47,748 bases of DNA. Source: Promethearchaeota archaeon (GTDB lineage Archaea; Asgardarchaeota; Lokiarchaeia; Sigyniarchaeales; SOKP01). Positions 18,876 to 47,748 of the stretch are shown here, piece after piece; positions within the stretch are counted from its first letter, which is position 1, and the number at the start of each line of letters is the position of its first letter. Under the pieces are notes generated by a model that was given only the letters and a program-made list of their open reading frames with translations, made no database searches and was not told the DNA's origin. The stretch spans positions 1 through 47,748 of the forward strand of contig JAHLWS010000013.1 in assembly GCA_019057795.1 (NCBI GenBank), in the 5' to 3' direction. A program made the translations under genes and the position numbers.

Positions 18876-18885
18876 TTTTCTACCT

Positions 18886-22464: not shown

Positions 22465-22745
22465 TTTATTTACCCGAACATTAACAAATGTGTGATTATT
22501 AGTTGATTTTTATTTCCACCTTCATATAAAAATCCTGATATTTATACTTTTTCATAAATAAGAAATTAGTATAAAGTGGTTTCATTCATAGATATGGAAA
22601 TAGAAGATATATTTGATATTTTTGAGCTCAAAGTTATTTAGATGATATACAATCTATCAAAAATGACTATATAACTAAATTTAAATCTTTGAAAGAATTA
22701 GATTTAAATATTCATTTACGAAGGAGAGAAGTTGAGGGAGTAAAG

Positions 22746-23459
22746 ATGCAAAAAATTAAAGAATCTGCTCTTGTTGTTTTTAGCGGCGGCCAAGATTCGA
22801 CAACATGTCTTGTTTGGGCTTTAAAAAAGTTTGAAAGTGTTTCTGCTATTACTTTTAATTATAAGCAAAGGCATAAAATTGAGATTGACTGCGCTAAAAA
22901 TATCATTGATTTGTTAAGTTCAAAAAAGAATATCCAAATTGCTTGGCTCAAGGATAACGCCCAAATCAATCATATAATTGTGGATATGTCCTTCCTATCT
23001 AATATATTACAAACTGCTATGATTCAAGATTTAAACATAGAGTACGACGACGAGACAAACCTTCCAACCACATTTGTGCCCGGAAGAAATATTTTATTCT
23101 TGACGATTGCTGCGGCTTATGCGTATCAAAAGAAGATAAGGCATATTATTACAGGAGTTTGCCAGACAGACTATTCTGGATATCCCGATTGCCGAGATGC
23201 GACAATCAAATCGCTACAAGCGACTTTAAAATTAGGATTAGAATACGATATAATTATTCATACGCCATTAATGTGGAAAAATAAAGCTGAAACAATTAAA
23301 ATGATGCAAAAATTAGGCGGGCTCGAGTTATATAAATATACTCACACTTGCTATAAAGGAGAACGCCCTGCTTGTGGAGAATGTCCTGCTTGTGAATTAC
23401 GCTTGAAAGGCTATAAAGAAGTGGGATTGATTGATCCTTTGGAGTATAAACATCGCTAA
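22746..23459 (+). CDS. queC: 7-cyano-7-deazaguanine (preQ0) synthase
   Basis: FSGGQDSTT, Y.QRH..E, TFVPGRN, YPDCR, TCY...CGECPAC. ATG 22746 (after GAGGGAG) is preferred to TTG 22689. Confidence 0.97.
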   Translation: MQKIKESALVVFSGGQDSTTCLVWALKKFESVSAITFNYKQRHKIEIDCAKNIIDLLSSKKNIQIAWLKDNAQINHIIVDMSFLSNILQTAMIQDLNIEYDDETNLPTTFVPGRNILFLTIAAAYAYQKKIRHIITGVCQTDYSGYPDCRDATIKSLQATLKLGLEYDIIIHTPLMWKNKAETIKMMQKLGGLELYKYTHTCYKGERPACGECPACELRLKGYKEVGLIDPLEYKHR

Positions 23460-23469
23460 ATAAATCGTA

Positions 23470-23925
23470 TTATTCCTCGTAAGAAGCCATAGAACTCTTA
23501 CTTTCACCAACCTTTACGACAATCTTTTTATCCTTATAAATCTCCTTTAATTTTTCGTAAATATATTTTGCTAAAAGCTCACTGGTTGTAGCTGGCAAGG
23601 GGAGAAAGCACACATCAGAGCGAGGAAAAATATATCTTTTAGTTGGTGTGATAACTTCTACTGAACCCTGTTCCTCTCTAATTTTTATATCTTTTGATTC
23701 TGTAGGAATTAAGATGTAGTGGTCCATTGGTTCAATAATTATTTTTAATTTTTTATTAAGCTCCATAAAATCTACAACAAAGTAATTATCATCTAAATTG
23801 TCACTAACCTCAACTGAAACGTAATAATTATGTCCGTGGAGCCTTGAACATTTAAAGTGCTCCTTTAGAAAATGACACGCGCTAAACTTTACTTTAGATT
23901 CGTTTACAATAACTTTAAATCCCAT
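23470..23925 (-). CDS. queD: 6-carboxytetrahydropterin synthase
   Basis: FSACH, CSRLHGHNY, VVDF, DH, TTSELLA, VGE. Confidence 0.95.
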   Translation of the reverse strand: MGFKVIVNESKVKFSACHFLKEHFKCSRLHGHNYYVSVEVSDNLDDNYFVVDFMELNKKLKIIIEPMDHYILIPTESKDIKIREEQGSVEVITPTKRYIFPRSDVCFLPLPATTSELLAKYIYEKLKEIYKDKKIVVKVGESKSSMASYEE

Positions 23926-24093
23926 ATATTGACAATCCCTCGATTTATGCTTATTACTATTACAAATTTTATCTATAATAAATTATTTAATGTCATTCTT
24001 TTTTTTTCTTCTCTTTACTTTAAAACAATTAAGCCATGGGACTATTTTAACACGATTATTGAAGATTTAATAATCCTTTTAATACTGAACAAC

Positions 24094-24957
24094 TCAAAGC
24101 AGCTTGAGATATTTATGTGCTTGAATAGATAAAGTTAAGCTTTCTGATGGCAGAAATTCCGCAGCTGTGTAAAATATATTATTCAAATGTGCTGTAGAAA
24201 TGGAATATTTATCCTTTAATTCTTTACTTTCGAGATAGACTGGTTGAATCGCCAATCCTACCACTTGACCATCGGAGTATGTGATCTTAGAGAGTTCTTT
24301 ACTTATCCAGCGAATGTTATGAAGTTGTGTTTGCGAAGTTACAACCAGTTTAGCAAATGTTTCCGTGCCATATTTTACCATATTCCTTATAAAGTCTAAT
24401 TCAGTAATAACTAAGTTTTTCCAAGGATCTAGGGGCGCAACTTTGGAACTCAAATCTTTAATGTCGCAACAACAATATTTAAAATATGTTGCGAGTTGTT
24501 TCATTTGACTATTATCAAGAATTATTGTTCCATTTGTTTCTAAATACAACGGATACTTTATGCGTGTGCCTTTTAAAGCTTTTGATAAATTCAAAACAAA
24601 ATCCGGTTGGTATAAGGGTTCCCCACCAGTAAAGCTTATAGAATGAAGGTCAGGAGTAATTAAATTCTTAATAATTCGAATTATTTCTTCAATTCCTACA
24701 TGATTGTTTGAATTTATTAATTTTTGCGAGCCCGGATTTTCTTCATATTTGAACTTTAATGACTCTAATTTTTGAGCGCAAGGTGAATCACACCAGATAC
24801 ACCCTATATAACCAGAATCGCCTTCTGCTAAATTACAACCAGAAAACCGAACGAAAATTTGACGCTTCCCAAAACAACTTCCTCGTACTATACCACCTTC
24901 TCCTTGAATCGATGAGAAAACTTCCGAGAGGTAGCCTTCTGAATCTTTTTTAGACAT
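24094..24957 (-). CDS. queE: 7-carboxy-7-deazaguanine synthase (radical SAM)
   Basis: EVFSSIQGEG, FVRFSGCNL...CIWCD, FTGGEP, LETNG, QP, QAHK. Confidence 0.93.
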   Translation of the reverse strand: MSKKDSEGYLSEVFSSIQGEGGIVRGSCFGKRQIFVRFSGCNLAEGDSGYIGCIWCDSPCAQKLESLKFKYEENPGSQKLINSNNHVGIEEIIRIIKNLITPDLHSISFTGGEPLYQPDFVLNLSKALKGTRIKYPLYLETNGTIILDNSQMKQLATYFKYCCCDIKDLSSKVAPLDPWKNLVITELDFIRNMVKYGTETFAKLVVTSQTQLHNIRWISKELSKITYSDGQVVGLAIQPVYLESKELKDKYSISTAHLNNIFYTAAEFLPSESLTLSIQAHKYLKLL

Positions 24958-24984
24958 GTATAAAAAAGATATTAATATATATGA

Positions 24985-26166
24985 TTAGAATATATCTAAA
25001 TTTTTATCTCCCTTCTCTATTAAATCTATTATCTTTTCCCAATTAAAAGCATATCCTTTCCCTCGTATAAACTTACTCAAATAAAAATCGGTTTGTAATT
25101 GTTTTTGAAAATAATTCCCAAATCTTCTTGTAAGTTCTTCGTTTAATTGAGTTAAAGATCTACCATAACCCATTTTTAATAATTCTACCCCTAATATTTT
25201 CAACCAACAATTTTCAGCTTTCCTTTGATAAATTGGTAAGACATCATCCTTTTCATTAAATTCTTGTAAATCCTCCCTAATATTTCGAATAATGCTGTTC
25301 AATCTCGTAGCCATACCCTTTTTTTCATAGCTATTTATAGATTGAATTCTATCAATATGAACAAGCATTCTTAAATAACCCCCCTCTGTCAATATAACAT
25401 AATGTAAAGCATCTTTAAATTCTCTTGACTCGACTCCATATTTCTTACATATTTCATACAATCGATTTCCTAATACAGTAAGTTTTCCTTCTCCTGTCCA
25501 AAGATTTAAAGTATCTAAAAACAATTTATAATTTAATTTAAAAGATGATGGTCTTTGAGTATTTGGGTATCTTAAAATTAATACTTCGTCCCATATTTCA
25601 TTTAATACAATTTTTTGAATCTTTCCTTGTAAATTTCTGTTCTCCACATCAGAAATTTTTATTAGCATCTTAGCTACTTCTTTAATATTAGTGTCCATCC
25701 AAAATAACCAAGATCTAGGGTTCGATTTAGTTAATCTTTTTTCTAAGCGTTCAATATCAACTTGAGTCTGAAGTTTAGCTCTTTTTATAATTTTTGGAGT
25801 GAATTTAAGTATGTTGTAACTAATCACACCGATATTTAAATCGACTTTCTTTACAATATCATTAATGAATGAAGGTATATGTAATCCGTCAATTACTTCA
25901 TCAGGTAATACAATATAAACTAATGGAAATGTCATTAAATATGATATTGATTGCCCTAATCCAGTAAGATACTCTCTTTTTACAGCATGAGGGGGTTTAA
26001 CTTCAAACGCAATTTGTGCCATGGGTTCCTTTGAAAGCCCTAATAATACAATGTCAGGTCTAGGGAAAATTGGCAATTTTGAAGCAAGATATCTATTCCC
26101 AAATGTTTTTTCCTGAATAAAATTTAAAGTAACTTTTTCTGCTATTTGGTCGTGCAATAAACCCAT
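24985..26166 (-). CDS. Putative restriction endonuclease (N-terminal PD-(D/E)XK domain plus C-terminal putative specificity domain)
   Basis: RPDIV...AFEVKP...GQSISY; lies between a DNA MTase and queE on the same strand. Confidence 0.75.
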   Translation of the reverse strand: MGLLHDQIAEKVTLNFIQEKTFGNRYLASKLPIFPRPDIVLLGLSKEPMAQIAFEVKPPHAVKREYLTGLGQSISYLMTFPLVYIVLPDEVIDGLHIPSFINDIVKKVDLNIGVISYNILKFTPKIIKRAKLQTQVDIERLEKRLTKSNPRSWLFWMDTNIKEVAKMLIKISDVENRNLQGKIQKIVLNEIWDEVLILRYPNTQRPSSFKLNYKLFLDTLNLWTGEGKLTVLGNRLYEICKKYGVESREFKDALHYVILTEGGYLRMLVHIDRIQSINSYEKKGMATRLNSIIRNIREDLQEFNEKDDVLPIYQRKAENCWLKILGVELLKMGYGRSLTQLNEELTRRFGNYFQKQLQTDFYLSKFIRGKGYAFNWEKIIDLIEKGDKNLDIF

Positions 26167-26213
26167 AAGTAAATATTATATCCGAAAATATAAAACCATT
26201 ATTAAATCAAAAA

Positions 26214-27080
26214 TTATTCATTCCTAAATATTAAGCAATAAATATGATGTCTATTGGCAACATAAGCAGAATTAACTCCTAAAGCAATTAAGGGTTTATC
26301 ATCTTGACACCAAATTCGTTCATCTTTTAAAATATAGTATTTACCTAATTCAGAAGCAAGATCAAATGCTAAAGGGTAAAGTTTTCCATTTTTATATATA
26401 TTATTGACGATTATTGTCATATAACCCTTCTTTTTAAGCCATCTTTTAAGATTTTTATAGAAATCGACTAATTGACTTAAGAAATCCTCATAATTCTCAA
26501 TATTTTCAAAATTTTTCTCATCCGTTGAATATTCAGTATCCAAACCATCTTCTTTCCTTTTTTTCTGACGAAGTGAATTCCTTTTTAAGGAATCCCAATA
26601 TGGTGGAGATGTGATAATATAATCAACTTCGGGAATTTTGAAATGCTCTATATTCTTACAATCTCCAAGATAAAAGTGTTGATTAGACCTGTTCCTTCCG
26701 ATTTCATAATATTTCTGCTCTAATTCTATTGAAAATCCAATACGTTCTAATTTTTCGCATATAAAATTTACTGTACCTGTACCTGCCATAGGGTCTAAAA
26801 CCATTTGACCTTTTTTCGTAAAAAAACTAATATACTTTTCAACCAAAGATTCAGGAAATTTTGCTGGATGAAGAAGTACATCTCCTGTTCTTCTTTTTGG
26901 CCTTAAAATGAACCAAGACTTTGTTTCTTTTATCCATTCCTTTCCTGTTAAATCATTTAATTTGTTATTTATACAAAAACGCCCTCTATCACCTAAATCA
27001 ATATATTTCTGTGCGTTAGATTGTTTAATTTTTAATGTAATTTTTCCGTTTTTAACTACCATATAAGTTTCTTTCATCAA
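26214..27080 (-). CDS. DNA amino-methyltransferase (SPPY; m4C/m6A type)
   Basis: HPAKFP, VLDPMAGTG (motif I), ITSPPYW (motif IV). Confidence 0.9.
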   Translation of the reverse strand: MMKETYMVVKNGKITLKIKQSNAQKYIDLGDRGRFCINNKLNDLTGKEWIKETKSWFILRPKRRTGDVLLHPAKFPESLVEKYISFFTKKGQMVLDPMAGTGTVNFICEKLERIGFSIELEQKYYEIGRNRSNQHFYLGDCKNIEHFKIPEVDYIITSPPYWDSLKRNSLRQKKRKEDGLDTEYSTDEKNFENIENYEDFLSQLVDFYKNLKRWLKKKGYMTIIVNNIYKNGKLYPLAFDLASELGKYYILKDERIWCQDDKPLIALGVNSAYVANRHHIYCLIFRNE

Positions 27081-27271
27081 AATTTAATTATTTATTATAA
27101 TATCGAAATGATCTCATTTAAATTACACGCTTTTAATCGATTACAAAAAAAGGTTAATCATTAAATTAGTAACAAGCACTTAATAATTAATTATTAAATC
27201 AATAAAGCCTCATCTTTTTTTAAACAATTTTAAAATTTTCATTTATATAATCATAATTCTATAAAAAAAAA

Positions 27272-28594
27272 ATGAAGCAGTTCGAGTTTGAAGATAATAA
27301 ATTTTTAAATTCAAATAATAATAAATTCATTGAAGAGGACGTTAAAACACTATTGGATAAAAATCCTAGGTTAAATTTATTTTTAGAATATTTAAATAAA
27401 AATAAGGTAAATTTTAAAATTTTAGACGAAGTTGAGGATTCCTACCTGGTAATAAAAACATCTACGATAGATCCTAAATATTTCATAATAATAATCAATG
27501 AAAAAGATACAAAGAATTATTTGCTTGATTATAAAAATATTAAATATTTCCAAAAAGCTTTATCTGACGATAAAATTAATTACGGAAATTTCTATATTTT
27601 ATTTTTAGATCCTTCATTAAATTCTATCGATGATGTCCTATTTAAATCAAGTTATGTAGATTTTAAGAGAATATCTTTAAAAATGGAATTTAAAAGGATA
27701 TCTAGTGTTGATTTAAAGATTTCTTTAAAAAGAGAATTAAGAAAAGGGCTCCCTATTGGAATTTATAGCGAAAAGAATAAATTAAATGATTTAACTGGAA
27801 AAGAATGGATCAAGTTTACTAAAAGTTGGTTTACTCATAATCCACCTCCTAGAAATAAAATAGAAATTCTACACCCCGCTAAATTTCCTGAAACTTTAAT
27901 AGAGGATTTTATTAAGTTTTTTACGAAGGAAAACCAAATTGTATTGGATCCATTTTTAGGGACAGGAAGTACAAGTGTTGCAGCAAAAAATACAATAAGA
28001 AGTTGTATTGGAGTAGAAATTAACAAAGATTACGCAGAAATAGCTAAATCCAGAATAAATCAAAAAAAAATTGATAAATGGGTTTATTCTGACGAAGAAA
28101 ATTTAATGTATAAAATTATTAATAACGATTCTAGTAAATTAGATGAAATATGGCAAAAAAATAAACTTCCGTTAGTTGATTTTTGTATAACAAGCCCTCC
28201 TTATTGGAATCAACTAAAGAGAAATTTCATGAGGCAACAAAAAAGAAAAGAAATGGGTTTAGACACAATTTATAGCAAAAATCCAAAAGATATTGGAAAT
28301 ATTGATGATTACAGAGAATTTATCAAAGCTCAAGAAAAAATTTTCGAAGAAGTCTACAAAGTTATCAAAAACAAGGGTTATTTAGTAATCATTACGAATA
28401 ATGTTTTTTATAATGGGAGACTTTTTCCTCTTGCTCATGATACTGCAGTTTCTCTATCTGAAAAATGGGTTCTAAAGGATGAAAAAATTTGGTGCCAAAA
28501 TGATAAAGCATTACTCCCATTAGGGATTAATAATGCATGGGTTGCAAATCGTTGTCATCAATACTGTTTAATTTTCAGAAAGGAACAAAATTAA
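27272..28594 (+). CDS. DNA amino-methyltransferase paralog with an N-terminal extension of about 130-160 aa
   Basis: LNDLTGKEWIK, HPAKFP, VLDPFLGTG, ITSPPYW. Confidence 0.9.
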   Translation: MKQFEFEDNKFLNSNNNKFIEEDVKTLLDKNPRLNLFLEYLNKNKVNFKILDEVEDSYLVIKTSTIDPKYFIIIINEKDTKNYLLDYKNIKYFQKALSDDKINYGNFYILFLDPSLNSIDDVLFKSSYVDFKRISLKMEFKRISSVDLKISLKRELRKGLPIGIYSEKNKLNDLTGKEWIKFTKSWFTHNPPPRNKIEILHPAKFPETLIEDFIKFFTKENQIVLDPFLGTGSTSVAAKNTIRSCIGVEINKDYAEIAKSRINQKKIDKWVYSDEENLMYKIINNDSSKLDEIWQKNKLPLVDFCITSPPYWNQLKRNFMRQQKRKEMGLDTIYSKNPKDIGNIDDYREFIKAQEKIFEEVYKVIKNKGYLVIITNNVFYNGRLFPLAHDTAVSLSEKWVLKDEKIWCQNDKALLPLGINNAWVANRCHQYCLIFRKEQN

Positions 28595-28659
28595 TTACCT
28601 TAGAAACAAAGTATTTTTTATATAAAGTAATGAAAAGATATTATGAGTTTTAACAACAA
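28571..28659 (+). repeat. Direct repeat copy A (MTase 3' end, intergenic, start of DUF6884-like gene); copy B at 29801-29889
   Basis: Ungapped manual alignment gives about 78/89 identity with 29801-29889. Confidence 0.9.
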
Positions 28660-28715
28660 ACGGAAAGTAGAGAGTTGTCTTAAAAGTAACGATAAAAAGG
28701 TCGTAGAGTGGAGAA

Positions 28716-29705
28716 TTAGTAAATAAAAACATTTTTCAGCTTATTTCTAAGAGTAATACCATGATCTCCAATAAAAATATCTTTCTGATGTGTAAAAATA
28801 GTAAAAACATTGTTTTTTTCGATTTGTTTTCCAATATCGTCCATAAGTTCATGGGAGACATAAGTAATTTTTTCATAAAAACCATGTAAATATTGTAAGA
28901 ACTCATGATTTGTTCCACACCACCAGTGAACAAGTTCATCAAAACAGAGGATTATATTTTTATATTTCCTTCCTACTGAGGGATGTTTACAAATATCTTC
29001 CAGAACATTTGAAGAGAAAAAAGATAATTTTAAATCTTCTAACAATTTTTCAATTTTTCTTGCTATTTTCTCAATTACTTCTTGATCAAATTCAGCATTT
29101 GTTTCTATAATTTCATATACTCTTTGAAGTTCAATGAAATCTTCTGAGGACAAGTGAGATTGAATTAAGTTTTTTAGACCAGTTTCAAAACAAATTCTAA
29201 TAATTTTTACATCCGGATTTATGCTTTCAGCAGGATTTAAGATATAATTACTTACAGTATATCGAATTGCTGTATCTAAATTTTTAGAACGGAATGTTAC
29301 TAATGAGATTGGAATTATTATGGTACCAGATAGCGTTTGGAGATCGGATTTTCCTTTTAATAGATTAATTGTATTACGATATTCACTGAAGAATTCCATA
29401 TCTTCAAAATTATTTAATTTCTTCTCGATAACCTCTTGAATTTCGGGTAAATATTTCTCTTTATTTAATATAATTGATAAGAAGAGCAAAGGATTTAAAT
29501 GATATGGAAAATATGGTATTAGGATATCAATTATTCCTTCTTTACTTGGATCATGAATCTTTGCCTTAATAGCTTGAAAAATTTTCTTAAATAAATTGAT
29601 GAATTTAATATTAAGATCGAAATTTTCCAAATATTCAGATATTTCGCTTAATGATTTCTCATTAAGATCATAAAAGTCTTGAATATTTCCAATCATTATT
29701 TTCAC
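28716..29705 (-). CDS. Walker-A-degenerate paralog of the BrxC ATPase domain
   Basis: CFDELVHWW...LQYLHG...HQK...ITLRNKLKNV aligns with BrxC ILDELSQWW...INQLHG...YQK...ITLKERLKKV; no GxxxxGKT. Confidence 0.75.
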   Translation of the reverse strand: MKIMIGNIQDFYDLNEKSLSEISEYLENFDLNIKFINLFKKIFQAIKAKIHDPSKEGIIDILIPYFPYHLNPLLFLSIILNKEKYLPEIQEVIEKKLNNFEDMEFFSEYRNTINLLKGKSDLQTLSGTIIIPISLVTFRSKNLDTAIRYTVSNYILNPAESINPDVKIIRICFETGLKNLIQSHLSSEDFIELQRVYEIIETNAEFDQEVIEKIARKIEKLLEDLKLSFFSSNVLEDICKHPSVGRKYKNIILCFDELVHWWCGTNHEFLQYLHGFYEKITYVSHELMDDIGKQIEKNNVFTIFTHQKDIFIGDHGITLRNKLKNVFIY

Positions 29706-29747
29706 TTTTTAATACATACTAGATATTTTTTTTAACATTAAATTTGT

Positions 29748-29795
29748 TTTATCATATTTCTTTATTAATTTATTGATATAATCCCAATTTATTTT
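29748..29795. repeat. Duplicated near-3' segment of the 31777-32529 gene; other copy at 31819-31866
   Basis: 47/48 identical; encodes KINWDYINKL[I/V]KKYDK on the minus strand. Confidence 0.92.
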
Positions 29796-29872
29796 TTTAC
29801 ATTTTCAGTAAGGAACAAAATTAATTACTCTATAATCATAGTATTTTATATACAAAGTAATGAAAAAATAAT

Positions 29873-39372: not shown

Positions 39373-42300
39373 TTATTTACCTAAAATCTTTTTTATCATT
39401 TTTGATATTGTTATAACTTTTCTAAATTTCTCTTTATTAACAAAAAATTCTAACCATGTTGGAATATTACTATATTCATGAACATCAAACTTTTTTAATT
39501 TTTCTACAACTTCGTCTATATTTTCACATTCAATCAATTCTTCTGTAAAATTAATAATTCCTTCAATTTTTTCTTGAAATTCAAAATTAGCAATAATTTC
39601 ATCATCAAAATCGATACCTTCAATAAAATTTTCAATATTACCTTGAATTAATGAAACTTTTGATAATCTTAACCCTTGAACTTGTTGAAAAACTGTTCTT
39701 TCTATATTTACATTATGCATATCTTTATAATTTTCTAATTTTAACTTGTTCAGTTCAGGAAATAAATGACTATCCCTTAAAAACTGTAGGAATTGTATTA
39801 AATGATTCCAATCATTTATGCTTATCAAATCTCCCTTTTTGATATAGAATGATGGTTTTGAAAGATTATTTAATTGATTTATAGTTTTGCAGAAATTATC
39901 TCTCTCATTTTGAGTTTGTGGATAAGGTTCTAATGTACCTCTACTACTTTTCATTATTTTAATATAGCCTTCAGCGAATAATGCTACTATGGAGAGTAAT
40001 GTGTATTCAAAATTCATGTTATACATCGAATGTCTTAAATCTATTAAAATGTCTTTAATGGCTATTGGATCATCATTTAATATACTAAGTATTAAATCTT
40101 CAATTGGTTTAATATAGACTTTTTTAAAATCCAAGCTTACTTTGAATTTTCCTGCTGAAATTTTTTTTAAAAACCCGAGATCTGAATAAAAATTTAAAGT
40201 CTCCTTCTGCGTTTTAACATTTGTCTTATACTCATCAAGTGTTTTTAAACAAAGAAGTAGATGATTTATTTTTGGGGGTGTAAAAAATTGATCTATTGGC
40301 TCTAATCCTGCTGAAAAATTTTCTCTTTTAAATCTTTCTCTAGCACTTTCATAATTATCATATTCAGCACCATCATAATAATAACGATATAAAGATTTAA
40401 ATTTAAGAAAGAATTGTTCATCGATTTCAGGGACTTTTCTCAATCTATCTGCTAGTTCAGCCGAAATTATAGTTGAATTTTTAATACATATATTATGAAA
40501 TTCACGTAAAGGTTCCCAGAATAGATTTATATCAATTAAATTCAAATTAATTTCATTTTGATATTTTTCTTGAAAGAAATTGAATACATCTTCAAATAAA
40601 TTAGTTGAAGTTTGCATAAGATCTCCAGATTCCTCTAAAATAGTTTTAAGAACGTTAAGTATTAAATTTGACTGTAAGATTTTGTTTAAATTATAATTGA
40701 AATATTCAATATCTTTCAATTCTTTATCAGTATAAGCGAAAATAATTTTTTTATTTTCCTTAAATTTATTTTCAATAAAATTGGTGATATCTCTTAATTT
40801 AGGTTTATAATAATATGCAAACCCATCAGGTATTGCAGTTTCAATAAATTTATTAATATTGATGAAACTATCTAAATGATTAGTTAAATTTAGCTCGTTT
40901 TCCTCAAGATCATCATTTATATTATTTTCAATTTCATCGAAATCATCCATATTTAAAAAAGAATTTTTTATAAAAACATAATCAAACTTTGGAACAAGAT
41001 CTCCATAATCATCAGTAAAATCTTTACTAGAATCACCAATGTTAAGTTTATATTGTAAGTAATTCAAAATATTTTCATAATCAATTAGGTTTTCAAGTTT
41101 ATTAATATAAGTATCAATATTTATTACGGCTTCAAAGGACAATAAATATTTTCTGGTTGCGCTTTCATAAGTTAATTCAATAATTCCATTAGTTATCAAT
41201 TTATTATGAAAATCTTTTATCTCTTTTGAGATATCTTTTAGAAAAATTAAGTTAAACGCGTCAACTGTCATTCCCTCTCGAAAAACGAATAATAATTTAA
41301 TAATTTTCAATTCTATTGAATCTTCATCCAATTTTAAATTGTTTCGGATCTTTCGGTAGAATAAAGATAAAAATTGATTTTCTTCAAAAATATCATTCAG
41401 AAATTCATTTATAACTTCGTTAGGGTCAATTAATTCATCATAATTATTATTTAGGTTTTTTTCTAATAATTTAACAATAATATTCATCCCACCCCTCATT
41501 TCAGTAGAATATTTTCCTATCTCCCCCCATATTGCAGGAATAAATATTGTTGGATGAAATGGATAAAACAATTGAAAATATTTATAAATACCTTCTTTGG
41601 TATTCCTATAAACAATTTTATCATCAAAAAAAATATATTTTTTTAGAAGTGATTCAGATGGTTTTAATGTATTTTGTATATGGGTGGAAAAAAATAATGC
41701 AATCTTTTCAATTTCAATATGATCTAACGAAGTTTGATCCAAGCATCTTCTCGGCACTATATCTTTGAATTCGCTGGATTCGACAACCCACACTTTTTTC
41801 AATCTTTCTTTTAATGTGATAAATTCATTACTTCTTAAATTTTTTTGATAACTTACAATTAATGAAATATTTAAATCGAGTTCATTTCGAAAATCTTCAA
41901 CTAAACCATGTAATTGGTTTATTAAATCCACTTCAGGTTTACTTCCCCACCATTGACTCAATTCATCAAGAATTATTAAAACATGTTTTACATTGTACTT
42001 TTTTGTAAGTGCAGAATTTTTAATTACTTCAGATAATTTTTTATTCTCCATATCAAGAGTAAATTTAGTACTCATTTTATCCTCATAAGTTCTAATTAAA
42101 TTCTGTTGGATTTCAATTAATTCTTCAAACTCAAGGTTATTTAAATTACTGATATCATCAGAAATACGATTTCTTGTTATTCTATCAAGATCATTTAAAA
42201 TTAGTTTCCTTATATCTGGATCTAATTCATTTTTGAACCAGTCAATAGTGTTATAGATTGAAAACAATCTGATTTCGTTATCATCATACTTATTAATAGC

Positions 42301-42801
42301 AATGTCTTGTAAACTATATCTTATAATCTCAATTAATCTGGTATCATTAGTAAAATCGGTTAATTTGATTGGGCAAATTAATAAATCATTATTAAATCTT
42401 TTTCTCAACTCTGTTGAATAATGTATGATTTGCGTATTTTTTTTATAATCTAGATTTAGATTAAATAAATCCTGAATTTTTTCATCATTAAGTAAGAGTA
42501 AAGATAAAAATGTTAAGAAATGTGTTTTACCTGTTCCATATTCACCTCTGAGAAAAAAACAAATTTTTTTTTTGACTTTTTTTTCTCCTTGGGCTTTAAT
42601 CCTTTCTAAAAATGATTGTAAAAACTCTATCATGTGATAAGAAATATCTCGTGTTATAATATACTCTTGAATGATTTCAGTAATTAGTTCTTTAAAACTA
42701 AATGCATCAAATTGCTTGTATTGAATATCTCTTATCCAATTAATATCTATTACATCTGTTGGTTTTTTTACTCTTTTTATAATATCTTCTATTTTTTTCA
42801 T
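39373..42801 (-). CDS. brxC: BrxC/PglY-family P-loop ATPase
   Basis: GEYGTGKTH, IILDEL, ERL arginine finger, YPFHP, R sensor; upstream of pglZ. Confidence 0.85.
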   Translation of the reverse strand: MKKIEDIIKRVKKPTDVIDINWIRDIQYKQFDAFSFKELITEIIQEYIITRDISYHMIEFLQSFLERIKAQGEKKVKKKICFFLRGEYGTGKTHFLTFLSLLLLNDEKIQDLFNLNLDYKKNTQIIHYSTELRKRFNNDLLICPIKLTDFTNDTRLIEIIRYSLQDIAINKYDDNEIRLFSIYNTIDWFKNELDPDIRKLILNDLDRITRNRISDDISNLNNLEFEELIEIQQNLIRTYEDKMSTKFTLDMENKKLSEVIKNSALTKKYNVKHVLIILDELSQWWGSKPEVDLINQLHGLVEDFRNELDLNISLIVSYQKNLRSNEFITLKERLKKVWVVESSEFKDIVPRRCLDQTSLDHIEIEKIALFFSTHIQNTLKPSESLLKKYIFFDDKIVYRNTKEGIYKYFQLFYPFHPTIFIPAIWGEIGKYSTEMRGGMNIIVKLLEKNLNNNYDELIDPNEVINEFLNDIFEENQFLSLFYRKIRNNLKLDEDSIELKIIKLLFVFREGMTVDAFNLIFLKDISKEIKDFHNKLITNGIIELTYESATRKYLLSFEAVINIDTYINKLENLIDYENILNYLQYKLNIGDSSKDFTDDYGDLVPKFDYVFIKNSFLNMDDFDEIENNINDDLEENELNLTNHLDSFININKFIETAIPDGFAYYYKPKLRDITNFIENKFKENKKIIFAYTDKELKDIEYFNYNLNKILQSNLILNVLKTILEESGDLMQTSTNLFEDVFNFFQEKYQNEINLNLIDINLFWEPLREFHNICIKNSTIISAELADRLRKVPEIDEQFFLKFKSLYRYYYDGAEYDNYESARERFKRENFSAGLEPIDQFFTPPKINHLLLCLKTLDEYKTNVKTQKETLNFYSDLGFLKKISAGKFKVSLDFKKVYIKPIEDLILSILNDDPIAIKDILIDLRHSMYNMNFEYTLLSIVALFAEGYIKIMKSSRGTLEPYPQTQNERDNFCKTINQLNNLSKPSFYIKKGDLISINDWNHLIQFLQFLRDSHLFPELNKLKLENYKDMHNVNIERTVFQQVQGLRLSKVSLIQGNIENFIEGIDFDDEIIANFEFQEKIEGIINFTEELIECENIDEVVEKLKKFDVHEYSNIPTWLEFFVNKEKFRKVITISKMIKKILGK

Positions 42802-42807
42802 TTTTTC

Positions 42808-43413
42808 TCACTCATTTTTGGACTTGATAAATTTAATATGTTGTTTAAGATCATTAAAATTGTCGAATCTAGATAAATTATCAATATGTAGTTCTCCATA
42901 ATTTAACTTTACAAAGTTTATAAATGAAGATTCAGAGGGTTTCTCTAACTCGAAAGTTTTTATACAACTAAAGTTAAAAGAAATAGTCTTATTTTTATCA
43001 AAAATTAGGAGTATTGTCCCTCCTAAGCTAAAAAATTTACTCTTTCTAAATAATAAATAATTAATATCATTAGATTGTTCAAAAGAAAATAATCTATCAA
43101 TATGATCAAATATAATAAGAAAATCTTTATATTTCTTTTCAGGAATATCTTTAATTAAGTTATGAAATTTTGTTTTTATTAATCTTCTATTTTCAAATTT
43201 ATCGTCTAAATCCAAATCTTCCAAAATGTCTTCACCGTTAAATAAAATAACATTTTGAATATTTTTTTCTAAACGATTAGCTATTATAGATTTTCCATAT
43301 CCGTTATCACTTACTAAACAAATTAACTTTCTACGCTTGTAACTTTTAAAAATTTCAAATATTTTTTCGAAAATTTTTATCTGTTCTGGAAAAAGATTTA
43401 TATGATTAAAAAT
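42808..43413 (-). CDS. Small BrxB/BrxF-like P-loop protein (about 201 aa, non-canonical ATT start)
   Basis: The frame is open upstream of the annotated TTG (43224) to 43434, adding LICLVSDNGYGKS (degenerate Walker A). Walker B is LIIFDHID. GGAGGT (43423-43428) lies 9 nt before ATT 43413. Confidence 0.7.
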   Translation of the reverse strand: MFNHINLFPEQIKIFEKIFEIFKSYKRRKLICLVSDNGYGKSIIANRLEKNIQNVILFNGEDILEDLDLDDKFENRRLIKTKFHNLIKDIPEKKYKDFLIIFDHIDRLFSFEQSNDINYLLFRKSKFFSLGGTILLIFDKNKTISFNFSCIKTFELEKPSESSFINFVKLNYGELHIDNLSRFDNFNDLKQHIKFIKSKNE

Positions 43414-44182
43414 CGTAAATAAACCTCCATTTTTCTATCTTTTCTTTATTAATATTTATTGTTCCTCCAGTTAGATGCCCAAATGAAATATAACCCATAT
43501 TTTTCAATTGATTTAAGATATTAGACAAGTTTCTATTTTTTAAAAACCAAATTTTTGTAACATTGAGTCTTAATATATCTCCTTGGTTAATTCCTGGATT
43601 TTTTCTTGTGTTCAATTCATCCAATAAAGTAAAGAAAAATATTTTGGAATCTGGGTGATATTCTTTGATTAATACTTCAAAATTTCCTCTTCCATCTTTT
43701 CTATTTTCTATTAACTTACAATCCTCCAGATTTAAAAGAGCTCTACTAACATTATTTAATTTGCTCGCTTGCTTTAATGAACTTTCAATTGTGTTTATTA
43801 ACTTTAACTCTAATATTGCTCTTCTTTTTTTATAAATTCCGCCTGATTTATTAAAATCATTAAAGAGGTGCTCAATAACATCAAAGTAGGGTTCAACATA
43901 TCTATATAAACCATAGTGAAGTACTTCATTTTGATGTTTTTTTGACTCACTAAAAAATTCAAGTAAGGGGTGAATATATATTTCTTTTTTTTTTGATATG
44001 AAATATGAATTTATAATCTGTGAAATTATTCCTTTTATTGTGGTTTCTTTATCTTGATATTTTTCAACGATTTTAGTGATATCTTCTCTAGCGACATTTC
44101 TTTTTTCAAAATCTAAATTTTTCACAATGTCTATCAAAATAGGTCTTATTTGTTTAAGCATATATTGAAATGTTTTTGTCAT
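43406..44182 (-). CDS. BrxA-like multi-wHTH DNA-binding protein
   Basis: First gene of the BREX-like run; 258 aa with wHTH-like segments (RALLNLEDCKLI, ILNQLKNMGYI). Assignment rests mainly on position and size. Confidence 0.55.
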   Translation of the reverse strand: MTKTFQYMLKQIRPILIDIVKNLDFEKRNVAREDITKIVEKYQDKETTIKGIISQIINSYFISKKKEIYIHPLLEFFSESKKHQNEVLHYGLYRYVEPYFDVIEHLFNDFNKSGGIYKKRRAILELKLINTIESSLKQASKLNNVSRALLNLEDCKLIENRKDGRGNFEVLIKEYHPDSKIFFFTLLDELNTRKNPGINQGDILRLNVTKIWFLKNRNLSNILNQLKNMGYISFGHLTGGTININKEKIEKWRFIYDF

Positions 44183-44999: not shown

Positions 45000-45590
45000 A
45001 TGTGTAATTTTATGGTAGAAATTGATAATATATTAAATCAAAATCCAATATTGATAATTGGTCCTTATGGTTCTGGTAAAACGAGTATTATAACAAAGAT
45101 TTATAATTTTTTAATGAGTTTAATTACTTTAGATGATCTCCAGATTCAAAATGAAGAACTTTTTCAGATTTTAAACAATATTGAACCCGAAAATTATGAA
45201 CTTATATGGTTTTCTGCATCTGAAGGTGAAAACATTAGAGATTTATTTTATGACAAATTAACGCCACTCATCGAGCGTTTCAATATAAATCTAAATAATA
45301 TCTCCAATTTTGGGAGAGATCTGAAAAATGATATTGGATCCATCGTTGAAATTATTAAAGAAAATAATCCTAATAAAAGATTATTATTTCTAATTGATGA
45401 ATTTGAATTTGCTTTAAAGTCAAATAACAGATAGCAATCTTTGAGTTTTATCCAATTATTAAGCGAATTAATTAGAGAAAGAGGAATAAATCTTATAATA
45501 GCACTTCAATCAGGATATAGATTACCTCAATTAATTGAAAGTAGATTCTATATCCTCAGAATCTCTTATACCAGTAAAAAAATTGGATGA
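45000..45590 (+). pseudogene. P-loop/AAA ATPase with premature stop, cut off by the mobile element
   Basis: IGPYGSGKT and LIDEFE; in-frame continuation after TAG 45432-45434 reads QSLSFIQLL...NLIIALQ...ESRF. Confidence 0.7.
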
Positions 45591-45694: not shown

Positions 45695-47748
45695 TTCTTA
45701 AGTTTACAAGTTAACAACTTTTTTTATATTTTTTTGTAATATCTCTTATTTTTCTTTCCGACATTATTTCTTCAGTATTTTAAGTTATTAGAATTGTTCA
45801 AAACTGCGTTTAACAGATTAATTGAGTGATTTCTTCATTTAAAAGAGATTTTGCTCTATTTTGATTCCATCCCCCCTACTCTTGAAAAATATTCGCTAAT
45901 TCGATAAGATGAATCTAGTTTTTATAGGCAATAAATTTATAAACCTTCCCCCCTATTATTAATTATGGTTTATTTAACTCGAAAAAAAAAGAAAGGGAAA
46001 TATTACCTGTATTTGGAAGAAAAGGCTTGGATCAACGGTCGTACTCGTCGAGTTTGGCAAAAATATCTGGGTCCAGAAGATAAACTTAAAGATATTAAGT
46101 TTAATAGTCTGTTAACAAGACTTGATAACAGAGTGGAGGTAAAAATCATCGAGTTCGGGATTTCCGCAGCTCTATGGCAAATGGCAGAGGAGATTGAATT
46201 AGCCAAGATTATTGATGCTCATACTGGAAAAGAGAGGAATCAAAACTTATCTTTGGGTGAGTACATTACCATTGCAGCCATAAATCGCTGTGTTGCCCCT
46301 TGTTCAAAATCTAAATTAAAACAATGGTACGAGAAGGACTGGCTTTCCACGAGATACGACGTTGAGCCCAAAGTATTGAATGCCCAGACCTATTGGAACC
46401 ACTTTCAATACCTAAATAAAGAGGTTCTTGCGCAAATTGAACTCGCATTCGGGCAGTTTGTGGTTGATAAGTACGACCTCGACCTTGACAGCTTATTCTA
46501 CGACCCTACTAATTTTTTTACGTTTTCTAAAGGAGGTGAAGGAAGCGAATTGCTTCAATTCGGGCACTCTAAAGAAAATCGAAACGGATGTCGCCTTGTA
46601 AATTATTCGCTACTATGTGCTCGAGAATCGGGAATCCCTTTGATGCACGAAACATACGCAGGAAACGTTCAAGACGCACGGGAATTTAAAGAGGTGCCGC
46701 AACGAATAGCAAACCGCCTTCGTGCACTCGGAAGGGATCCCGAGCGAATTACGTTGGTGTTTGATAAAGGAAACCATTCAAAAGAAGCGTTTGCTGCCAT
46801 CGATCAAATGGGGTTAGGTTTTATTGCCTCCAGAAAAAATTCGACTCACAAGGAACTTCTCCACACGCCTCGGGATAAATTCATCAAGACGGTATTACCG
46901 CTAACAAAAAAGGCGGTCGAGTACTTTAAGACGACTAAGAAGATATACGGGAAAAATCGGATTCTTTACGTTGTCCTCGATCCGTTGAAACAGAAGAAAC
47001 ACGCTATTAAATTTAACGAAAACCTTGAAAAAAAGGTTCTTGAAATTAAGGAGTACTTTAAAGACCGTTTGAACGTAAAAATGTGGTCTAAAAAAGAAGC
47101 GGTCGAGAAGAAGCTGAAATCCATAATCGGCAGAAGACCCCTTACAGATGTAATTATTACCGAAGTTCTGGGTACGGACGGAAACATGACTCTAAAAGTT
47201 TCAATTGATGAGAAAGCCAGAAAAGCACACGAGGCAACGCTGGGACGGACAATATTATTCACTAATCGCGAAGAGTGGACCCCTGAGGCCGTTATTTGGG
47301 GATATAGAGAACAATACATTGTAGAACACGCCTTTCGGGACATGAAAAGTCCAACTTCTATTGCCATTCGACCGATGTATCACCACGCAGACTCCTCTGT
47401 CCGGGCTCATGTGTTCTTGTGCGTGATTTCCTTGCTTTTATTATCGCTACTCAGGTTGAAATTGGCGAGAAAATCGGTACCTACGAGTTACAACGAACTT
47501 CTCAGCGAACTAAGAGCAATACACGCTCTTAAAATTTTAACCAGCCCAAAAGCAAAACCTCTTTGGAAACTTGAAAAAATTCCTAAAAGCGCTTCAAAGC
47601 TTTTCAAGACGCTAAATTTAAGGCGTCTACTGCCAAATTAAGAATTCATCCCCCCCTACTTTTTTCTTCAACGTCTTTAAATTCATTAATGTCGTTAGTT
47701 ACATTAAGAAAAACTTTTTTTTTGATACTTAACTTGTAAACTTAAGAA
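45695..47748. mobile_element. Element bounded by perfect 20-bp terminal inverted repeats, containing the IS1634 transposase
   Basis: TTCTTAAGTTTACAAGTTAA at 45695-45714 and its exact reverse complement at 47729-47748. Confidence 0.85.
45965..47641 (+). CDS. IS1634-family DDE transposase
   Basis: YLYL.E...NG......YLG, YDPTN, FGHSKE.R, GN..D, VFDKG, Y.....VE.AFR.MK....IRPMYH, AH.F.C. Visibly GC-richer than the flanks. Confidence 0.93.
   Translation: MVYLTRKKKKGKYYLYLEEKAWINGRTRRVWQKYLGPEDKLKDIKFNSLLTRLDNRVEVKIIEFGISAALWQMAEEIELAKIIDAHTGKERNQNLSLGEYITIAAINRCVAPCSKSKLKQWYEKDWLSTRYDVEPKVLNAQTYWNHFQYLNKEVLAQIELAFGQFVVDKYDLDLDSLFYDPTNFFTFSKGGEGSELLQFGHSKENRNGCRLVNYSLLCARESGIPLMHETYAGNVQDAREFKEVPQRIANRLRALGRDPERITLVFDKGNHSKEAFAAIDQMGLGFIASRKNSTHKELLHTPRDKFIKTVLPLTKKAVEYFKTTKKIYGKNRILYVVLDPLKQKKHAIKFNENLEKKVLEIKEYFKDRLNVKMWSKKEAVEKKLKSIIGRRPLTDVIITEVLGTDGNMTLKVSIDEKARKAHEATLGRTILFTNREEWTPEAVIWGYREQYIVEHAFRDMKSPTSIAIRPMYHHADSSVRAHVFLCVISLLLLSLLRLKLARKSVPTSYNELLSELRAIHALKILTSPKAKPLWKLEKIPKSASKLFKTLNLRRLLPN

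What the first reader, a model, noticed from the sequence alone, without database searches (positions are those of the whole stretch)
22746..44182. Candidate new system: PglX-less BREX core coupled to 7-deazaguanine (preQ0) DNA modification and a restriction endonuclease
Seen: a tightly coupled minus-strand run brxA-like > small ATPase > brxC > pglZ > inactive pglZ > brxL > orphan specificity-domain gene. It converges on DUF6884-like > TGT, which sits next to two MTases, a PD-(D/E)XK nuclease and queE/queD/queC. No PglX, PAPS-reductase (BrxP/DpdC) or DpdB/DndB gene was recognised. Established: BREX types mark self DNA with PglX methylation, and type 4 carries a PAPS-reductase-domain BrxP instead. 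Dpd systems insert preQ0 into DNA with the TGT paralog DpdA plus the ATPase DpdB. Inference: the BrxC/PglZ/BrxL scaffold is paired with a third chemistry, base exchange to 7-deazaguanine, with BrxC possibly replacing DpdB. I know of no described BREX-Dpd hybrid. The two MTases could instead be the BREX marker.
Basis: partly seen in the sequence, partly recalled or inferred. Interest (0 to 1): 0.95.

Follow-up and report, generated by a model that had tools for sequence, protein, structure and literature searches.

The report
PglX-less archaeal BREX beside deazaguanine/methylase cassette
An Asgard archaeon carries a BREX-type antiviral operon that lacks its usual DNA-marking enzyme and abuts a portable cassette (two DNA methylases, a guanine-swapping TGT enzyme, preQ0 synthesis genes); in related archaea the same cassette pairs with either this BREX type or a Dpd-type helicase set, so it probably writes the "self" mark, but this is untested.

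Summary
The gene layout is real, but some labels are not. BrxL (short, Lon-less), PglZ (catalytic residues kept) and a BrxC-like ATPase are supported. The "small ATPase", "brxA-like" and "inactive pglZ" labels could not be verified. No PglX, BrxP or DpdB was found.

I could read what abuts the TGT 3' end in 14 related Asgard loci (TGT at least 60% identical). A BrxC-PglZ-BrxL operon sits there in 7 (one inferred from a fragment) and a Dpd-like DpdJ/DpdK/DpdH-like set in 7. Nothing else occurs there. BREX-linked TGTs are not one clade (AU p = 2e-5), so the partners were swapped repeatedly.

The queCDE genes are the genome's only copies, and the ancestral QueC/QueD locus is deleted. The TGT keeps its catalytic and Zn residues, lacks tRNA-binding domains and ends in a conserved PIP-like motif.

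Two caveats remain. The paired methylases travel with the cassette too, and one BREX locus has them without TGT, so which mark BREX reads is unresolved. A BREX-related/TGT hybrid (BRC) was also published in 2026. This scan already found the same system in another genome. Verdict: a new variant of a known kind.

The parts
22689..23459 (+). QueC (preQ0 synthase), the only copy in the genome
   Evidence: Pfam PF06508 3.3e-73 and TIGR00364 above cut-off. Sole full-length QueC in G000. The ancestral SDR-QueC/QueD locus is cleanly absent at C82:76626-76691.
23470..23925 (-). QueD (6-carboxytetrahydropterin synthase), the only copy
   Evidence: PF01242 2.9e-24. Single match in the genome.
24094..24957 (-). 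Divergent radical-SAM QueE-like protein
   Evidence: PF04055 above cut-off; weak hits to several QueE models, all below their cut-offs. Conserved next to queD in L011, L107, L119, L130 and L137.
24985..26166 (-). Candidate restriction endonuclease: N-terminal PD-(D/E)xK motif plus a ~240-aa helical C-terminal domain
   Evidence: PD...EVK motif invariant in 6 homologues. No family hit. AF2 model poor (pLDDT 51). Optional in related loci and found at variable positions.
26214..27080 (-). MT1, PF01555 amino-methyltransferase (SPPY motif)
   Evidence: Pfam 9.6e-24, PADLOC MTase_II 1.4e-31. SPPY at residue 158. 74-95% identical across loci.
27272..28594 (+). MT2, paralogue of MT1 (47% identity) with an extra ~160-aa N-terminal domain. 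First gene of the MT2-DUF6884-TGT operon in related loci.
   Evidence: Pfam 1.5e-31, PADLOC 8e-41. SPPY at residue 308. Operon layout seen in L105, L117 and L119.
28716..29705 (-). orf329: decayed N-terminal fragment of a flavour-A BrxC, without a P-loop, inserted between MT2 and DUF6884
   Evidence: 35% identity to BrxC residues ~1-330 of G276 and L104. No Walker A. Flanked by an 89-nt direct repeat, 28571-28659 / 29801-29889, 88% identical.
29873..30406 (+). DUF6884 protein, homologous to the N-terminal part of DpdC
   Evidence: PF21818 9.4e-16, PF03883 2.8e-4, PADLOC DpdC 5.7e-10 and PDC-M57A 7e-17. Sits upstream of TGT in every assessable locus of this TGT family, directly adjacent in all but L111/L107, where the 397-aa nuclease gene lies between them.
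30409..31656 (+). TGT paralogue (DpdA-like by role, arcTGT-like by sequence), with no PUA or C-terminal tRNA-binding domains and a C-terminal PIP-like motif
   Evidence: TIGR00449 76.7 bits, above cut-off; DpdA equivalog only 16.5 bits. Aligns to ArcTGT 1IQ8 with DSGGFQ, GVDSIDS and CxCxxC...H conserved. The C-terminal Qxx[LI]xx[FY][FLI] motif is conserved across homologues. Housekeeping arcTGT and an ArcS-like gene lie elsewhere in the genome.
31777..32529 (-). orf250: stand-alone paralogue of the nuclease's C-terminal domain; last gene of the BREX-like operon
   Evidence: 35% identity to residues 154-388 of orf393. Present after BrxL in L111, L107 and L110.
32555..33973 (-). BrxL, short type (N-terminal domain plus MCM-like AAA+, no Lon or HKD domain)
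   Evidence: TIGR02688 427.5 bits (cut-off 329.3), PF13337 1e-101, PF20442 1e-20. Short BrxL is reported as typical of type 4 BREX (PMC12839542).
33970..36084 (-). orf704: orphan protein at a PglZ-like position; function unknown
   Evidence: Only 4 close homologues. None further in an exhaustive HMMER search. hhalign against PglZ matches only the C-terminal beta-sandwich (E 0.014). Language-model lead to PglZ at 0.82. AF2 pLDDT 42. It is the only gene in the PglZ position in L110.
36077..38629 (-). PglZ (alkaline-phosphatase-fold effector) with catalytic residues retained
   Evidence: Pfam PglZ E 0.0025. Homologous to the G276 PglZ, which passes Pfam and PADLOC. Invariant D506, P539, D590, D644-H645, H716.
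38613..39371 (-). orf252: conserved small gene between BrxC and PglZ; unknown function
   Evidence: No family hit. Positional counterparts of 244-268 aa in L110, L111, G276 and L104.
39373..42801 (-). BrxC-like AAA+/P-loop ATPase (1142 aa)
   Evidence: PADLOC BrxC 2.6e-9 and PDB BrxC-BrxB 9zn5 E 0.0026, both over the P-loop region only. Walker A GEYGTGKT and DE Walker B invariant. 24% identity over the full length to the G276 BrxC. Precomputed PF19557 hit (weak) in the L111 homologue.
42808..43224 (-). orf138: small protein at the BrxB-like position; no P-loop
   Evidence: No family hit and no Walker A. The G276 counterpart (223 aa) has a P-loop and STAND-like hits.
43406..44182 (-). orf258: first gene of the operon, possibly a BrxA/DUF4007-like DNA binder (unverified)
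   Evidence: 30% identity to the G276 286-aa first gene. Language-model leads to wHTH and FokI-recognition clusters at 0.87-0.90. No HMM hit.

Best explanation
The region is a composite, horizontally acquired self/non-self DNA defence island built from three modules.

(1) A self-marking cassette, MT1 | MT2-DUF6884-TGT, fed by island-borne queC/D/E. QueD, QueE and QueC make preQ0. The TGT paralogue keeps the base-exchange chemistry of archaeosine TGT but lacks the tRNA-binding domains. It ends in a PIP-like peptide, so it is inferred to swap guanine for preQ0 in DNA, probably tethered to PCNA at the replication fork. The DpdC-like DUF6884 partner either converts the nitrile to an amide or assists insertion. 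The two SPPY methylases add m4C or m6A, plausibly one strand each at an asymmetric site.

(2) An optional PD-(D/E)xK nuclease that the marks block.

(3) A BrxC-PglZ-(orf704)-BrxL-orf250 operon with no PglX or BrxP of its own. It acts as the effector and depends on the cassette for self-recognition. Its last gene, a free copy of the nuclease's C-terminal domain, is inferred to supply the DNA reading that PglX supplies in type 1 BREX.

In related archaea the same cassette is wired to a Dpd-like DpdJ/DpdK/DpdH-like set instead, so BREX-like and Dpd-like effectors are interchangeable.

Shown: gene content, conserved catalytic residues, recurrence and swapping of the pairing, and acquisition of queCDE. 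Inferred: DNA as the TGT substrate, the PCNA link, which mark BREX reads (my split: deazaguanine ~40%, methyl ~35%, both ~25%), and the role of orf250.
For: Recurrence. In 14 of 14 loci where the TGT 3' flank is readable, the neighbour is either BREX-like or Dpd-like.
- BREX-like: window, L111/L107, L110, L104, L117, G276, and probably L119.
- Dpd-like: L010, L105, L108, L118, L011, L106, L109.

Swapping.
- The AU test rejects BREX-linked TGTs as one clade (delta lnL 73, p 2e-5).
- L104 and L117 share a 99% identical BrxL but carry TGTs that each match the window's differently (89% and 72%).
- The window and L110 share 91-97% identical BrxL-orf250-TGT-DUF6884, yet their upstream BREX genes are only 57-67% identical.

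No marker gene inside the operon.

DNA-directed TGT.
- Catalytic Asp residues and Zn site conserved, no PUA domain.
- Conserved C-terminal PIP-like motif.
- Separate arcTGT and ArcS-like genes are present.
- The partner is DpdC-like.
- Dpd-type neighbours occur in the sister loci.

queCDE is acquired. It is the only copy, and the ancestral locus is deleted. It is linked to this TGT cassette in L011, L107 and L119, and to the sister TGT family in L130, L137, L124 and L133.

The PglZ catalytic residues are intact.
Against: - There is no biochemical or modification data; everything rests on sequence and gene context.
- The BREX operon and the cassette are separate, convergent transcription units.
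- L096 has BREX flavour C plus MT1/MT2 without TGT. L010 has TGT-DUF6884 plus a Dpd-like set without methylases. Each mark may therefore have its own native effector.
- orf250 is related to the nuclease of the methylase module, which points to the methyl mark rather than to deazaguanine.
- The bacterial DpdA model scores far below its cut-off and DpdB is absent.
- Many loci come from a few sediment metagenomes and related lineages, so the counts are not independent.
- The backbone of the TGT tree is unresolved.
Confidence: 0.55

Rival explanations
1. BREX reads methylation only. MT1/MT2 are the functional substitute for PglX. TGT-DUF6884-queCDE is a second, independent mark belonging to Dpd-type restriction (lost here), or it shields DNA from the PD-(D/E)xK nuclease or from foreign nucleases.
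For: - L096 has BrxC-PglZ-BrxL-s194 directly followed by MT2/MT1, with no TGT.
- L092 has a BREX-like operon co-directional with a related methylase.
- orf250 is a paralogue of the C-terminal domain of the nuclease encoded next to MT1.
- L010 shows that TGT-DUF6884 can serve a Dpd-like set without methylases.
- All characterised BREX types except type 4 use methylation (PMC12839542).
Against: - TGT-DUF6884 is intact, with catalytic residues conserved, in all 7 BREX-linked loci.
- It is inherited as a block with BrxL-orf250 (91-97% identity between the window and L110).
- MT1/MT2 are just as constant in the Dpd-like loci, so they are not BREX-specific.
Confidence: 0.25
2. Plain defence-island adjacency. 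The cassette borders a recombination hot spot where unrelated systems land. The BREX-like operon is autonomous, or discriminates by some unknown means, and has no functional tie to either mark.
For: - The window is a mosaic: IS605 OrfB, a DDE transposase, a PIN toxin, Nmad3, a further candidate system at 10-20 kb, and BrxC fragments.
- The modules converge rather than share a transcript.
- Junction shuffling and an 89-nt duplication scar are present.
- GC content of the BREX genes (20-24%) differs from that of the cassette (25-28%) and the genome (31%).
Against: - Only two kinds of neighbour, BREX-like and Dpd-like, occur in 14 of 14 readable loci. No CRISPR, toxin-antitoxin, Abi or other system was seen at that junction.
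- The junctions are 22-120 nt, with no room for another gene.
- The operon has no marker gene of its own, unlike every BREX type described.
Confidence: 0.13
3. The TGT, DUF6884 and queCDE genes serve tRNA (archaeosine-type) modification, and their position next to defence genes is incidental.
For: - The TGT is closest to archaeosine TGT: TgtA model 90 bits and PDB 1IQ8 E 2e-15.
- queCDE are the genome's only copies, so they must also feed any tRNA archaeosine pathway.
Against: - The genome has a full-length arcTGT (548 aa, 243 bits) and an ArcS-like gene elsewhere.
- The paralogue lacks the C-terminal tRNA-binding domains and scores far below the TgtA cut-off of 350.
- It occurs in only 5 of 400 genomes sampled from the phylum.
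- It always sits with DpdC-like, methylase and restriction-type genes.
- It carries a conserved C-terminal PIP-like motif.
Confidence: 0.05

Closest known systems
Type 4 BREX (BrxP/DUF4007, BrxC, PglZ, short BrxL; phosphorothioate mark)
   Same: BrxC-PglZ-BrxL core. BrxL is the short form without a Lon or HKD domain. There is no PglX. A small DNA-binder-like first gene and a BrxB-position gene precede BrxC.
   Different: No PAPS reductase (BrxP) or cysteine desulfurase. It has an extra orphan orf704 and a terminal orf250. The neighbouring marker genes are a TGT/DpdC-like/queCDE set and two PF01555 methylases. The sequences are very divergent (PADLOC BrxC matches the P-loop only; PglZ falls below Pfam's cut-off).
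BREX-Related Capture (BRC) system (Rakesh & Krishnan, NAR 2026, PMC12839542; computational)
   Same: PglZ and a BrxC-like ATPase associated with a TGT homologue, which the authors propose writes a 7-deazaguanine self-mark. No DpdB.
   Different: BRC is defined by a universally retained HerA/FtsK translocase, with DUF6079, a STAND NTPase, DUF4007 and often a GNAT. None of HerA or GNAT is present here. This system has BrxL, a DpdC-like DUF6884 protein, paired methylases and linked queCDE, which BRC lacks (the paper states that no DpdC homologue was found in BRC).
Bacterial Dpd system (DpdA/B/C modification, DpdD-K restriction; PMC10164549)
   Same: A TGT-family enzyme plus a DpdC-related protein plus linked preQ0 synthesis genes, beside a large restriction module. 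Sister loci carry DpdJ-, DpdK- and DpdH-like genes.
   Different: The TGT is arcTGT-like and fails the DpdA equivalog model (16.5 against 200 bits). DpdB is absent. The DUF6884 protein covers only the N-terminal part of DpdC. In this window the DpdD-K genes are replaced by BrxC-PglZ-BrxL. Two methylases are built into the cassette.
BRIGADE (haloarchaeal Dpd/ARMADA hybrids; bioRxiv 10.1101/2025.09.15.676423)
   Same: An archaeal system with a 7-deazaguanine biosynthesis cluster joined to alternative effector sets that share components with BREX.
   Different: BRIGADE is centred on YprA helicases and PLD nucleases and was reported only in halophilic archaea. It has no PglZ or BrxL.

Membership tests
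BREX (any type) | PglZ domain protein | tested here: met
   orf850: Pfam PglZ E 0.0025, below cut-off. It is homologous (E 1e-13) to the G276 PglZ, which passes Pfam (33.8 against 25 bits) and PADLOC (2.5e-13). Metal-binding and nucleophile-motif residues are invariant.
BREX (any type) | BrxC/PglY large ATPase | tested here: inconclusive
   Only the P-loop region matches BrxC models (PADLOC 2.6e-9; PDB BrxC-BrxB E 0.0026). Size, operon position, Walker A/B motifs and a weak PF19557 hit in a 90%-identical homologue agree. The C-terminal domains could not be tested.
BREX types 1, 2, 3, 5, 6 | PglX-type N6-adenine methyltransferase in the operon | tested here: not met
   No methyltransferase hit for any of the eight operon ORFs in Pfam, PADLOC or NCBIfam. 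orf704 has no detectable relative outside its own small family.
Type 4 BREX | BrxP PAPS-reductase (phosphorothioation) gene | tested here: not met
   No PAPS-reductase hit anywhere in 22.7-44.2 kb.
Type 4 BREX | Short BrxL (DNA-binding N-terminus plus MCM-like AAA+, no C-terminal extension) | tested here: met
   472 aa; TIGR02688 427.5 bits, above its cut-off; matches only positions ~1-470 of the long BrxL models. The feature is as described in PMC12839542.
Dpd system | DpdA (DNA-guanine transglycosylase) | tested here: inconclusive
   Member of the TGT superfamily (TIGR00449 above cut-off) with catalytic residues conserved. NF041059 DpdA scores 16.5 against a cut-off of 200, and PADLOC DpdA gives 1.6e-4. 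DNA activity was not tested.
Dpd system | DpdB ParB-like ATPase | tested here: not met
   No ParB/DndB-like hit in the region.
Dpd system | DpdC | tested here: inconclusive
   The DUF6884 protein hits five DpdC models (best 5.7e-10), but only over model positions ~33-106 of 319. It is 177 aa, against ~315 aa for DpdC.
Dpd system | DpdD-K restriction genes | tested here: not met
   Absent from the window. DpdJ-like (1.8e-29), DpdK-like (1.7e-9) and weak DpdH-like (6e-5) genes occupy the same position in sister loci.
BRC system | HerA/FtsK translocase (universally retained) | tested here: not met
   No HerA/FtsK or DUF87 hit among the window ORFs.
Type II restriction-modification | Methyltransferase(s) with a cognate endonuclease | tested here: inconclusive
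   The two PF01555 methylases pass cut-offs. The nuclease is supported only by a conserved PD...EVK motif. It is missing from several loci that keep both methylases (L011, L096, L117).

The most novel reading that the evidence does not exclude
This is a further BREX marking chemistry. The BrxC-PglZ-BrxL machine would tell self from non-self by a 7-deazaguanine base written into DNA by a PCNA-tethered, arcTGT-derived transglycosylase with a DpdC-like partner. The same mark would be read interchangeably by Dpd-type helicase/PLD effectors in sister lineages. In that case modification cassettes and effector sets in Asgard archaea form a plug-and-play system, much as phosphorothioation is shared between Dnd, Ssp and type 4 BREX.
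Probability: 0.35. Interest if true: 0.85.

Novelty: new variant of a known kind. Interest (0 to 1): 0.7.

Why it matters
BREX is widespread, but how it tells self from foreign DNA is still debated. Only methylation and phosphorothioation are established as its marks.

This locus offers a natural series for study. One modification cassette is wired to either BREX-like or Dpd-like effectors, with several BREX flavours and one methylase-only locus. That series makes two questions directly testable: which mark a PglX-less BREX reads, and what replaces PglX in site recognition.

It would also be the first case for deazaguanine DNA modification in Asgard archaea. The conserved PIP-like tail on the TGT suggests a replication-coupled way to insert the base without DpdB.

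The claim is tempered by the published in-silico BRC proposal and by the complete lack of experimental data.

Tried and rejected
- Single-protein scans of genome contigs with TGT and orf850 found nothing.
- A 400-genome search with orf850 missed the G276 homologue that BLAST later found. Its 'no match' tally is therefore not used.
- A protein-based QueC search of the genus gave 0 of 41. This was misleading: the family search found a divergent SDR-QueC fusion in 19 of 33 genomes. I dropped my interim claim that the genus lacks QueC.
- The AF2 models of orf393 and orf704 were too poor for fold searches (pLDDT 51 and 42), so none were run.
- hhalign of orf704 against PglZ, of the s194 family against MT2 or the nuclease C-terminal domain, and of BrxC against the DpdH-like set gave nothing significant. 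The only matches were a P-loop, a beta-sandwich and a weak motif-level hint.
- The PglZ alignment was too divergent for a metagenome scan.
- tblastn of the TGT against phage genomes found no match, so a recent phage DpdA origin was rejected.
- No tRNA genes or viral hallmark genes occur in the window, so a provirus reading was rejected.
- The divergent second BrxC operon of L110 has no counterpart in the window.

Full report
**Setting**

The window is contig C13 of a 4.95-Mb, 31% GC genome. Named homologues of its TGT come from Promethearchaeota, Lokiarchaeota and Helarchaeota MAGs, so the host is an Asgard archaeon.

GC content falls to 20-24% across the BREX-like genes and 25-28% across the cassette.

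The surroundings are a mosaic of mobile and defence-type genes: IS605 OrfB, a PIN toxin, Nmad3, a kinase/HAD/UPRTase/radical-SAM/helicase operon and a DDE transposase. There are no tRNA genes and no viral hallmark genes.

**What is there**

Pfam, PADLOC and NCBIfam scans confirm the following:
- QueC, QueD and a divergent QueE-like radical-SAM protein.
- Two paralogous PF01555 methylases, 47% identical, both with SPPY motifs.
- A DUF6884 protein followed 3 nt later by a 415-aa TGT.
- A packed minus-strand operon that ends in a short BrxL (TIGR02688, 427 bits).

For PglZ, orf850 scores weakly by itself. It is homologous to the G276 PglZ, which passes Pfam and PADLOC. An eight-member alignment keeps the metal-binding and nucleophile-motif residues D506, P539, D590, D644-H645 and H716.

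For BrxC, orf1142 matches the models only around its P-loop. It has Walker A and B motifs, the right size and the right position, and it aligns over its full length with the G276 BrxC.

- orf138 has no P-loop.
- orf258 has only language-model leads to wHTH-type DNA binders.
- orf704 is an orphan family. It has four close homologues and nothing more in an exhaustive HMMER search. Profile comparison with PglZ finds nothing beyond the C-terminal beta-sandwich. The AF2 model is unusable. In L110 it is the only gene in the PglZ position.

One statement was wrong. The DUF6884 protein hits DpdC models (5.7e-10) and weakly hits the YaaA/DUF328 family, so a DpdC-like gene is present.

No PglX, PAPS reductase, DpdB, HerA or GNAT was found.

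The 393-aa protein has a PD...EVK motif conserved in six homologues, and orf250 is a stand-alone copy of its C-terminal ~240 residues.

orf329 is a decayed, P-loop-less fragment of a different BrxC flavour. An 89-nt direct repeat brackets it.

**The TGT**

The TGT aligns to Pyrococcus ArcTGT (1IQ8). Both catalytic Asp motifs and the Zn site are conserved, but it stops before the C-terminal tRNA-binding domains.

The genome has a separate full-length arcTGT and an ArcS-like gene. The paralogue fails both the TgtA and the DpdA equivalog cut-offs and has no phage relatives.

Across the family, the last eight or so residues follow Q-x-x-[L/I]-x-x-[F/Y]-[F/L/I], which resembles a PCNA-interacting peptide. 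That this motif binds PCNA is my inference from general knowledge of archaeal PIP boxes.

The paralogue is rare, occurring in 5 of 400 genomes sampled from the phylum.

**queCDE**

The window holds the genome's only QueC, QueD and QueE.

A protein-based search wrongly suggested that the genus lacks QueC. The family search shows that 19 of 33 congeners carry a ~530-aa SDR-QueC fusion next to QueD.

In this genome the syntenic locus on C82 keeps all flanking genes, but only 65 bp lie where the pair should be. The island's stand-alone queC>, <queD, <queE cluster is therefore an acquired replacement.

The same cluster type sits beside this TGT cassette in L011, L107 and L119. It also sits beside a sister TGT family in L130, L137, L124 and L133.

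I read the flank of TGT homologues at least 60% identical, taken from protein-database contigs, species genomes and a metagenome scan.

A BrxC-PglZ-BrxL operon lacking PglX and BrxP converges on the TGT 3' end, with gaps of 22-120 nt, in these loci:
- the window;
- L111/L107;
- L110;
- L104;
- L117;
- G276;
- probably L119, where only the terminal s194 gene is visible.

A Dpd-like set occupies that place in L010, L105, L108, L118, L011, L106 and L109. It consists of a 1,600-1,800-aa DpdJ/YprA-type helicase (PADLOC DpdJ 1.8e-29), a DpdK-like protein (1.7e-9) and a ~990-aa protein with a weak DpdH hit.

No other kind of neighbour was seen.

The BREX operons fall into three flavours. These are only 22-38% identical to each other in BrxC, PglZ and BrxL (flavour-C PglZ shows only a fragmentary match), whereas the cassette genes are 57-95% identical.

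On the TGT tree, BREX-linked rows are not one clade (AU p 3e-4 and 2e-5). A Dpd-linked TGT (L011) is sister to the window/L110/L104 group with 99/99 support. The backbone is otherwise unresolved.

Junction shuffling is direct. L104 and L117 share a 99% identical BrxL but carry TGTs that match the window's at 89% and 72% respectively. The window and L110 share BrxL-orf250-TGT-DUF6884 at 91-97%, but their upstream genes are only 57-67% identical.

**What limits the deazaguanine reading**

MT1 | MT2-DUF6884-TGT behaves as one cassette. MT2, DUF6884 and TGT are co-directional, with gaps of 10-60 nt in L105, L117 and L119. The methylase pair is present in 8 of the 9 loci where that side can be seen.

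L096 has BREX flavour C, then s194, then MT2/MT1, with no TGT. L010 has TGT-DUF6884 with a Dpd-like set and no methylases. Each mark can therefore stand alone with one effector type.

orf250 is related to the nuclease of the methylase module, which also hints that this BREX flavour reads the methylase site.

Short BrxL genes elsewhere in the phylum pair with SMC-like ATPases, so BrxL alone is not diagnostic of BREX.

Many of the loci come from a few sediment projects and are related, so the counts overstate independence.

**Comparison with the literature**

- Rakesh & Krishnan (PMC12839542) define BRC systems: HerA/FtsK, PglZ, DUF6079, STAND and DUF4007, with or without GNAT and TGT. They propose a TGT-written deazaguanine mark with no DpdB or DpdC.
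- The same paper reports that type 4 BrxL is the short form and that type 4 BREX uses BrxP.
- The YprA preprint describes haloarchaeal BRIGADE systems and treats DpdH/I as BrxC-like.
- DpdA needs the DpdB ATPase in Salmonella, and DpdC converts dPreQ0 to dADG (PMC10164549).
- Full-text searches found no description of a BrxL-containing BREX joined to a TGT/DUF6884/methylase cassette, and none of deazaguanine DNA modification in Asgard archaea.
- This scan has already reported the same system in another genome. I reached the same reading independently here.

**Verdict**

Which mark the BREX-like machine reads is open, and nothing has been tested experimentally.

It fails membership of type 4 BREX (no BrxP), BRC (no HerA) and canonical Dpd (no DpdB, no DpdD-K). 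It is best filed as a new variant within the BREX/Dpd family of modification-dependent defence systems.

Noticed in passing
window 10125-20189 (-), with 8109-8933: An operon of AAA_17 kinase, HAD, UPRTase-like, two radical-SAM proteins, an SF1 helicase (AAA_11/AAA_12) and a 1110-aa protein ending in an FGE-sulfatase domain, next to an Nmad3 protein. It looks like a separate nucleotide-modifying defence candidate.
   Followed up: partly
window 31630-31656 (TGT C-terminus) and homologues P0002-P0064: A C-terminal Q-x-x-[L/I]-x-x-[F/Y]-[F/L/I] motif, resembling a PCNA-interacting peptide, is conserved across the whole TGT paralogue family, including the Dpd-linked members.
   Followed up: yes
G000 contig C82:72572-84293 versus L114 (G267:C3): Congeners carry an SDR-QueC fusion (~530 aa) plus QueD in a conserved neighbourhood. 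In this genome the neighbourhood is intact, but only 65 bp lie where the two genes should be.
   Followed up: yes
L012/L125, L124, L130, L131, L133, L136, L137: A sister TGT family (~48% identical) is always followed by a DUF5591 protein and flanked by giant ~1,450-1,475-aa proteins, with DUF87/HerA in L012. It often has queCDE up to 95% identical to the window's. This is another TGT-based system in the same archaea.
   Followed up: partly
window 45000-45434 (+): A 144-aa ORF matches the N-terminal ATPase part of DUF6079/BrxC-PglY_N (E 1e-6) and lies just upstream of a DDE transposase (45965-47641). It is probably the stump of another BrxC-like gene. It is unrelated to the second BrxC operon of L110.
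   Followed up: partly
L097, L098, L100 (G056, G045, G051): In other Asgard genomes, short BrxL homologues sit directly after an 1,100-1,200-aa SMC-like AAA_23 ATPase, with no PglZ or BrxC detected in the short contigs examined. This may be a distinct two-gene system.
   Followed up: partly
L093 (G069:C258): Two complete BrxC-PglZ-short BrxL operons converge tail to tail on one 19-kb contig, and no marker gene is visible.
   Followed up: no
L110 (GCA_019057775.1 contig 192) versus L104 (same assembly, contig 313): One MAG holds two TGT loci joined to different BREX flavours. The flavour-B' locus lacks the canonical PglZ gene and keeps only the orf704 homologue.
   Followed up: partly
L047, L053, L054, L056, L058 (same-genus genomes): A 152-aa DUF6884 paralogue sits in a conserved chromosomal neighbourhood with no TGT. 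The DUF6884 family therefore also has roles unrelated to the cassette.
   Followed up: no
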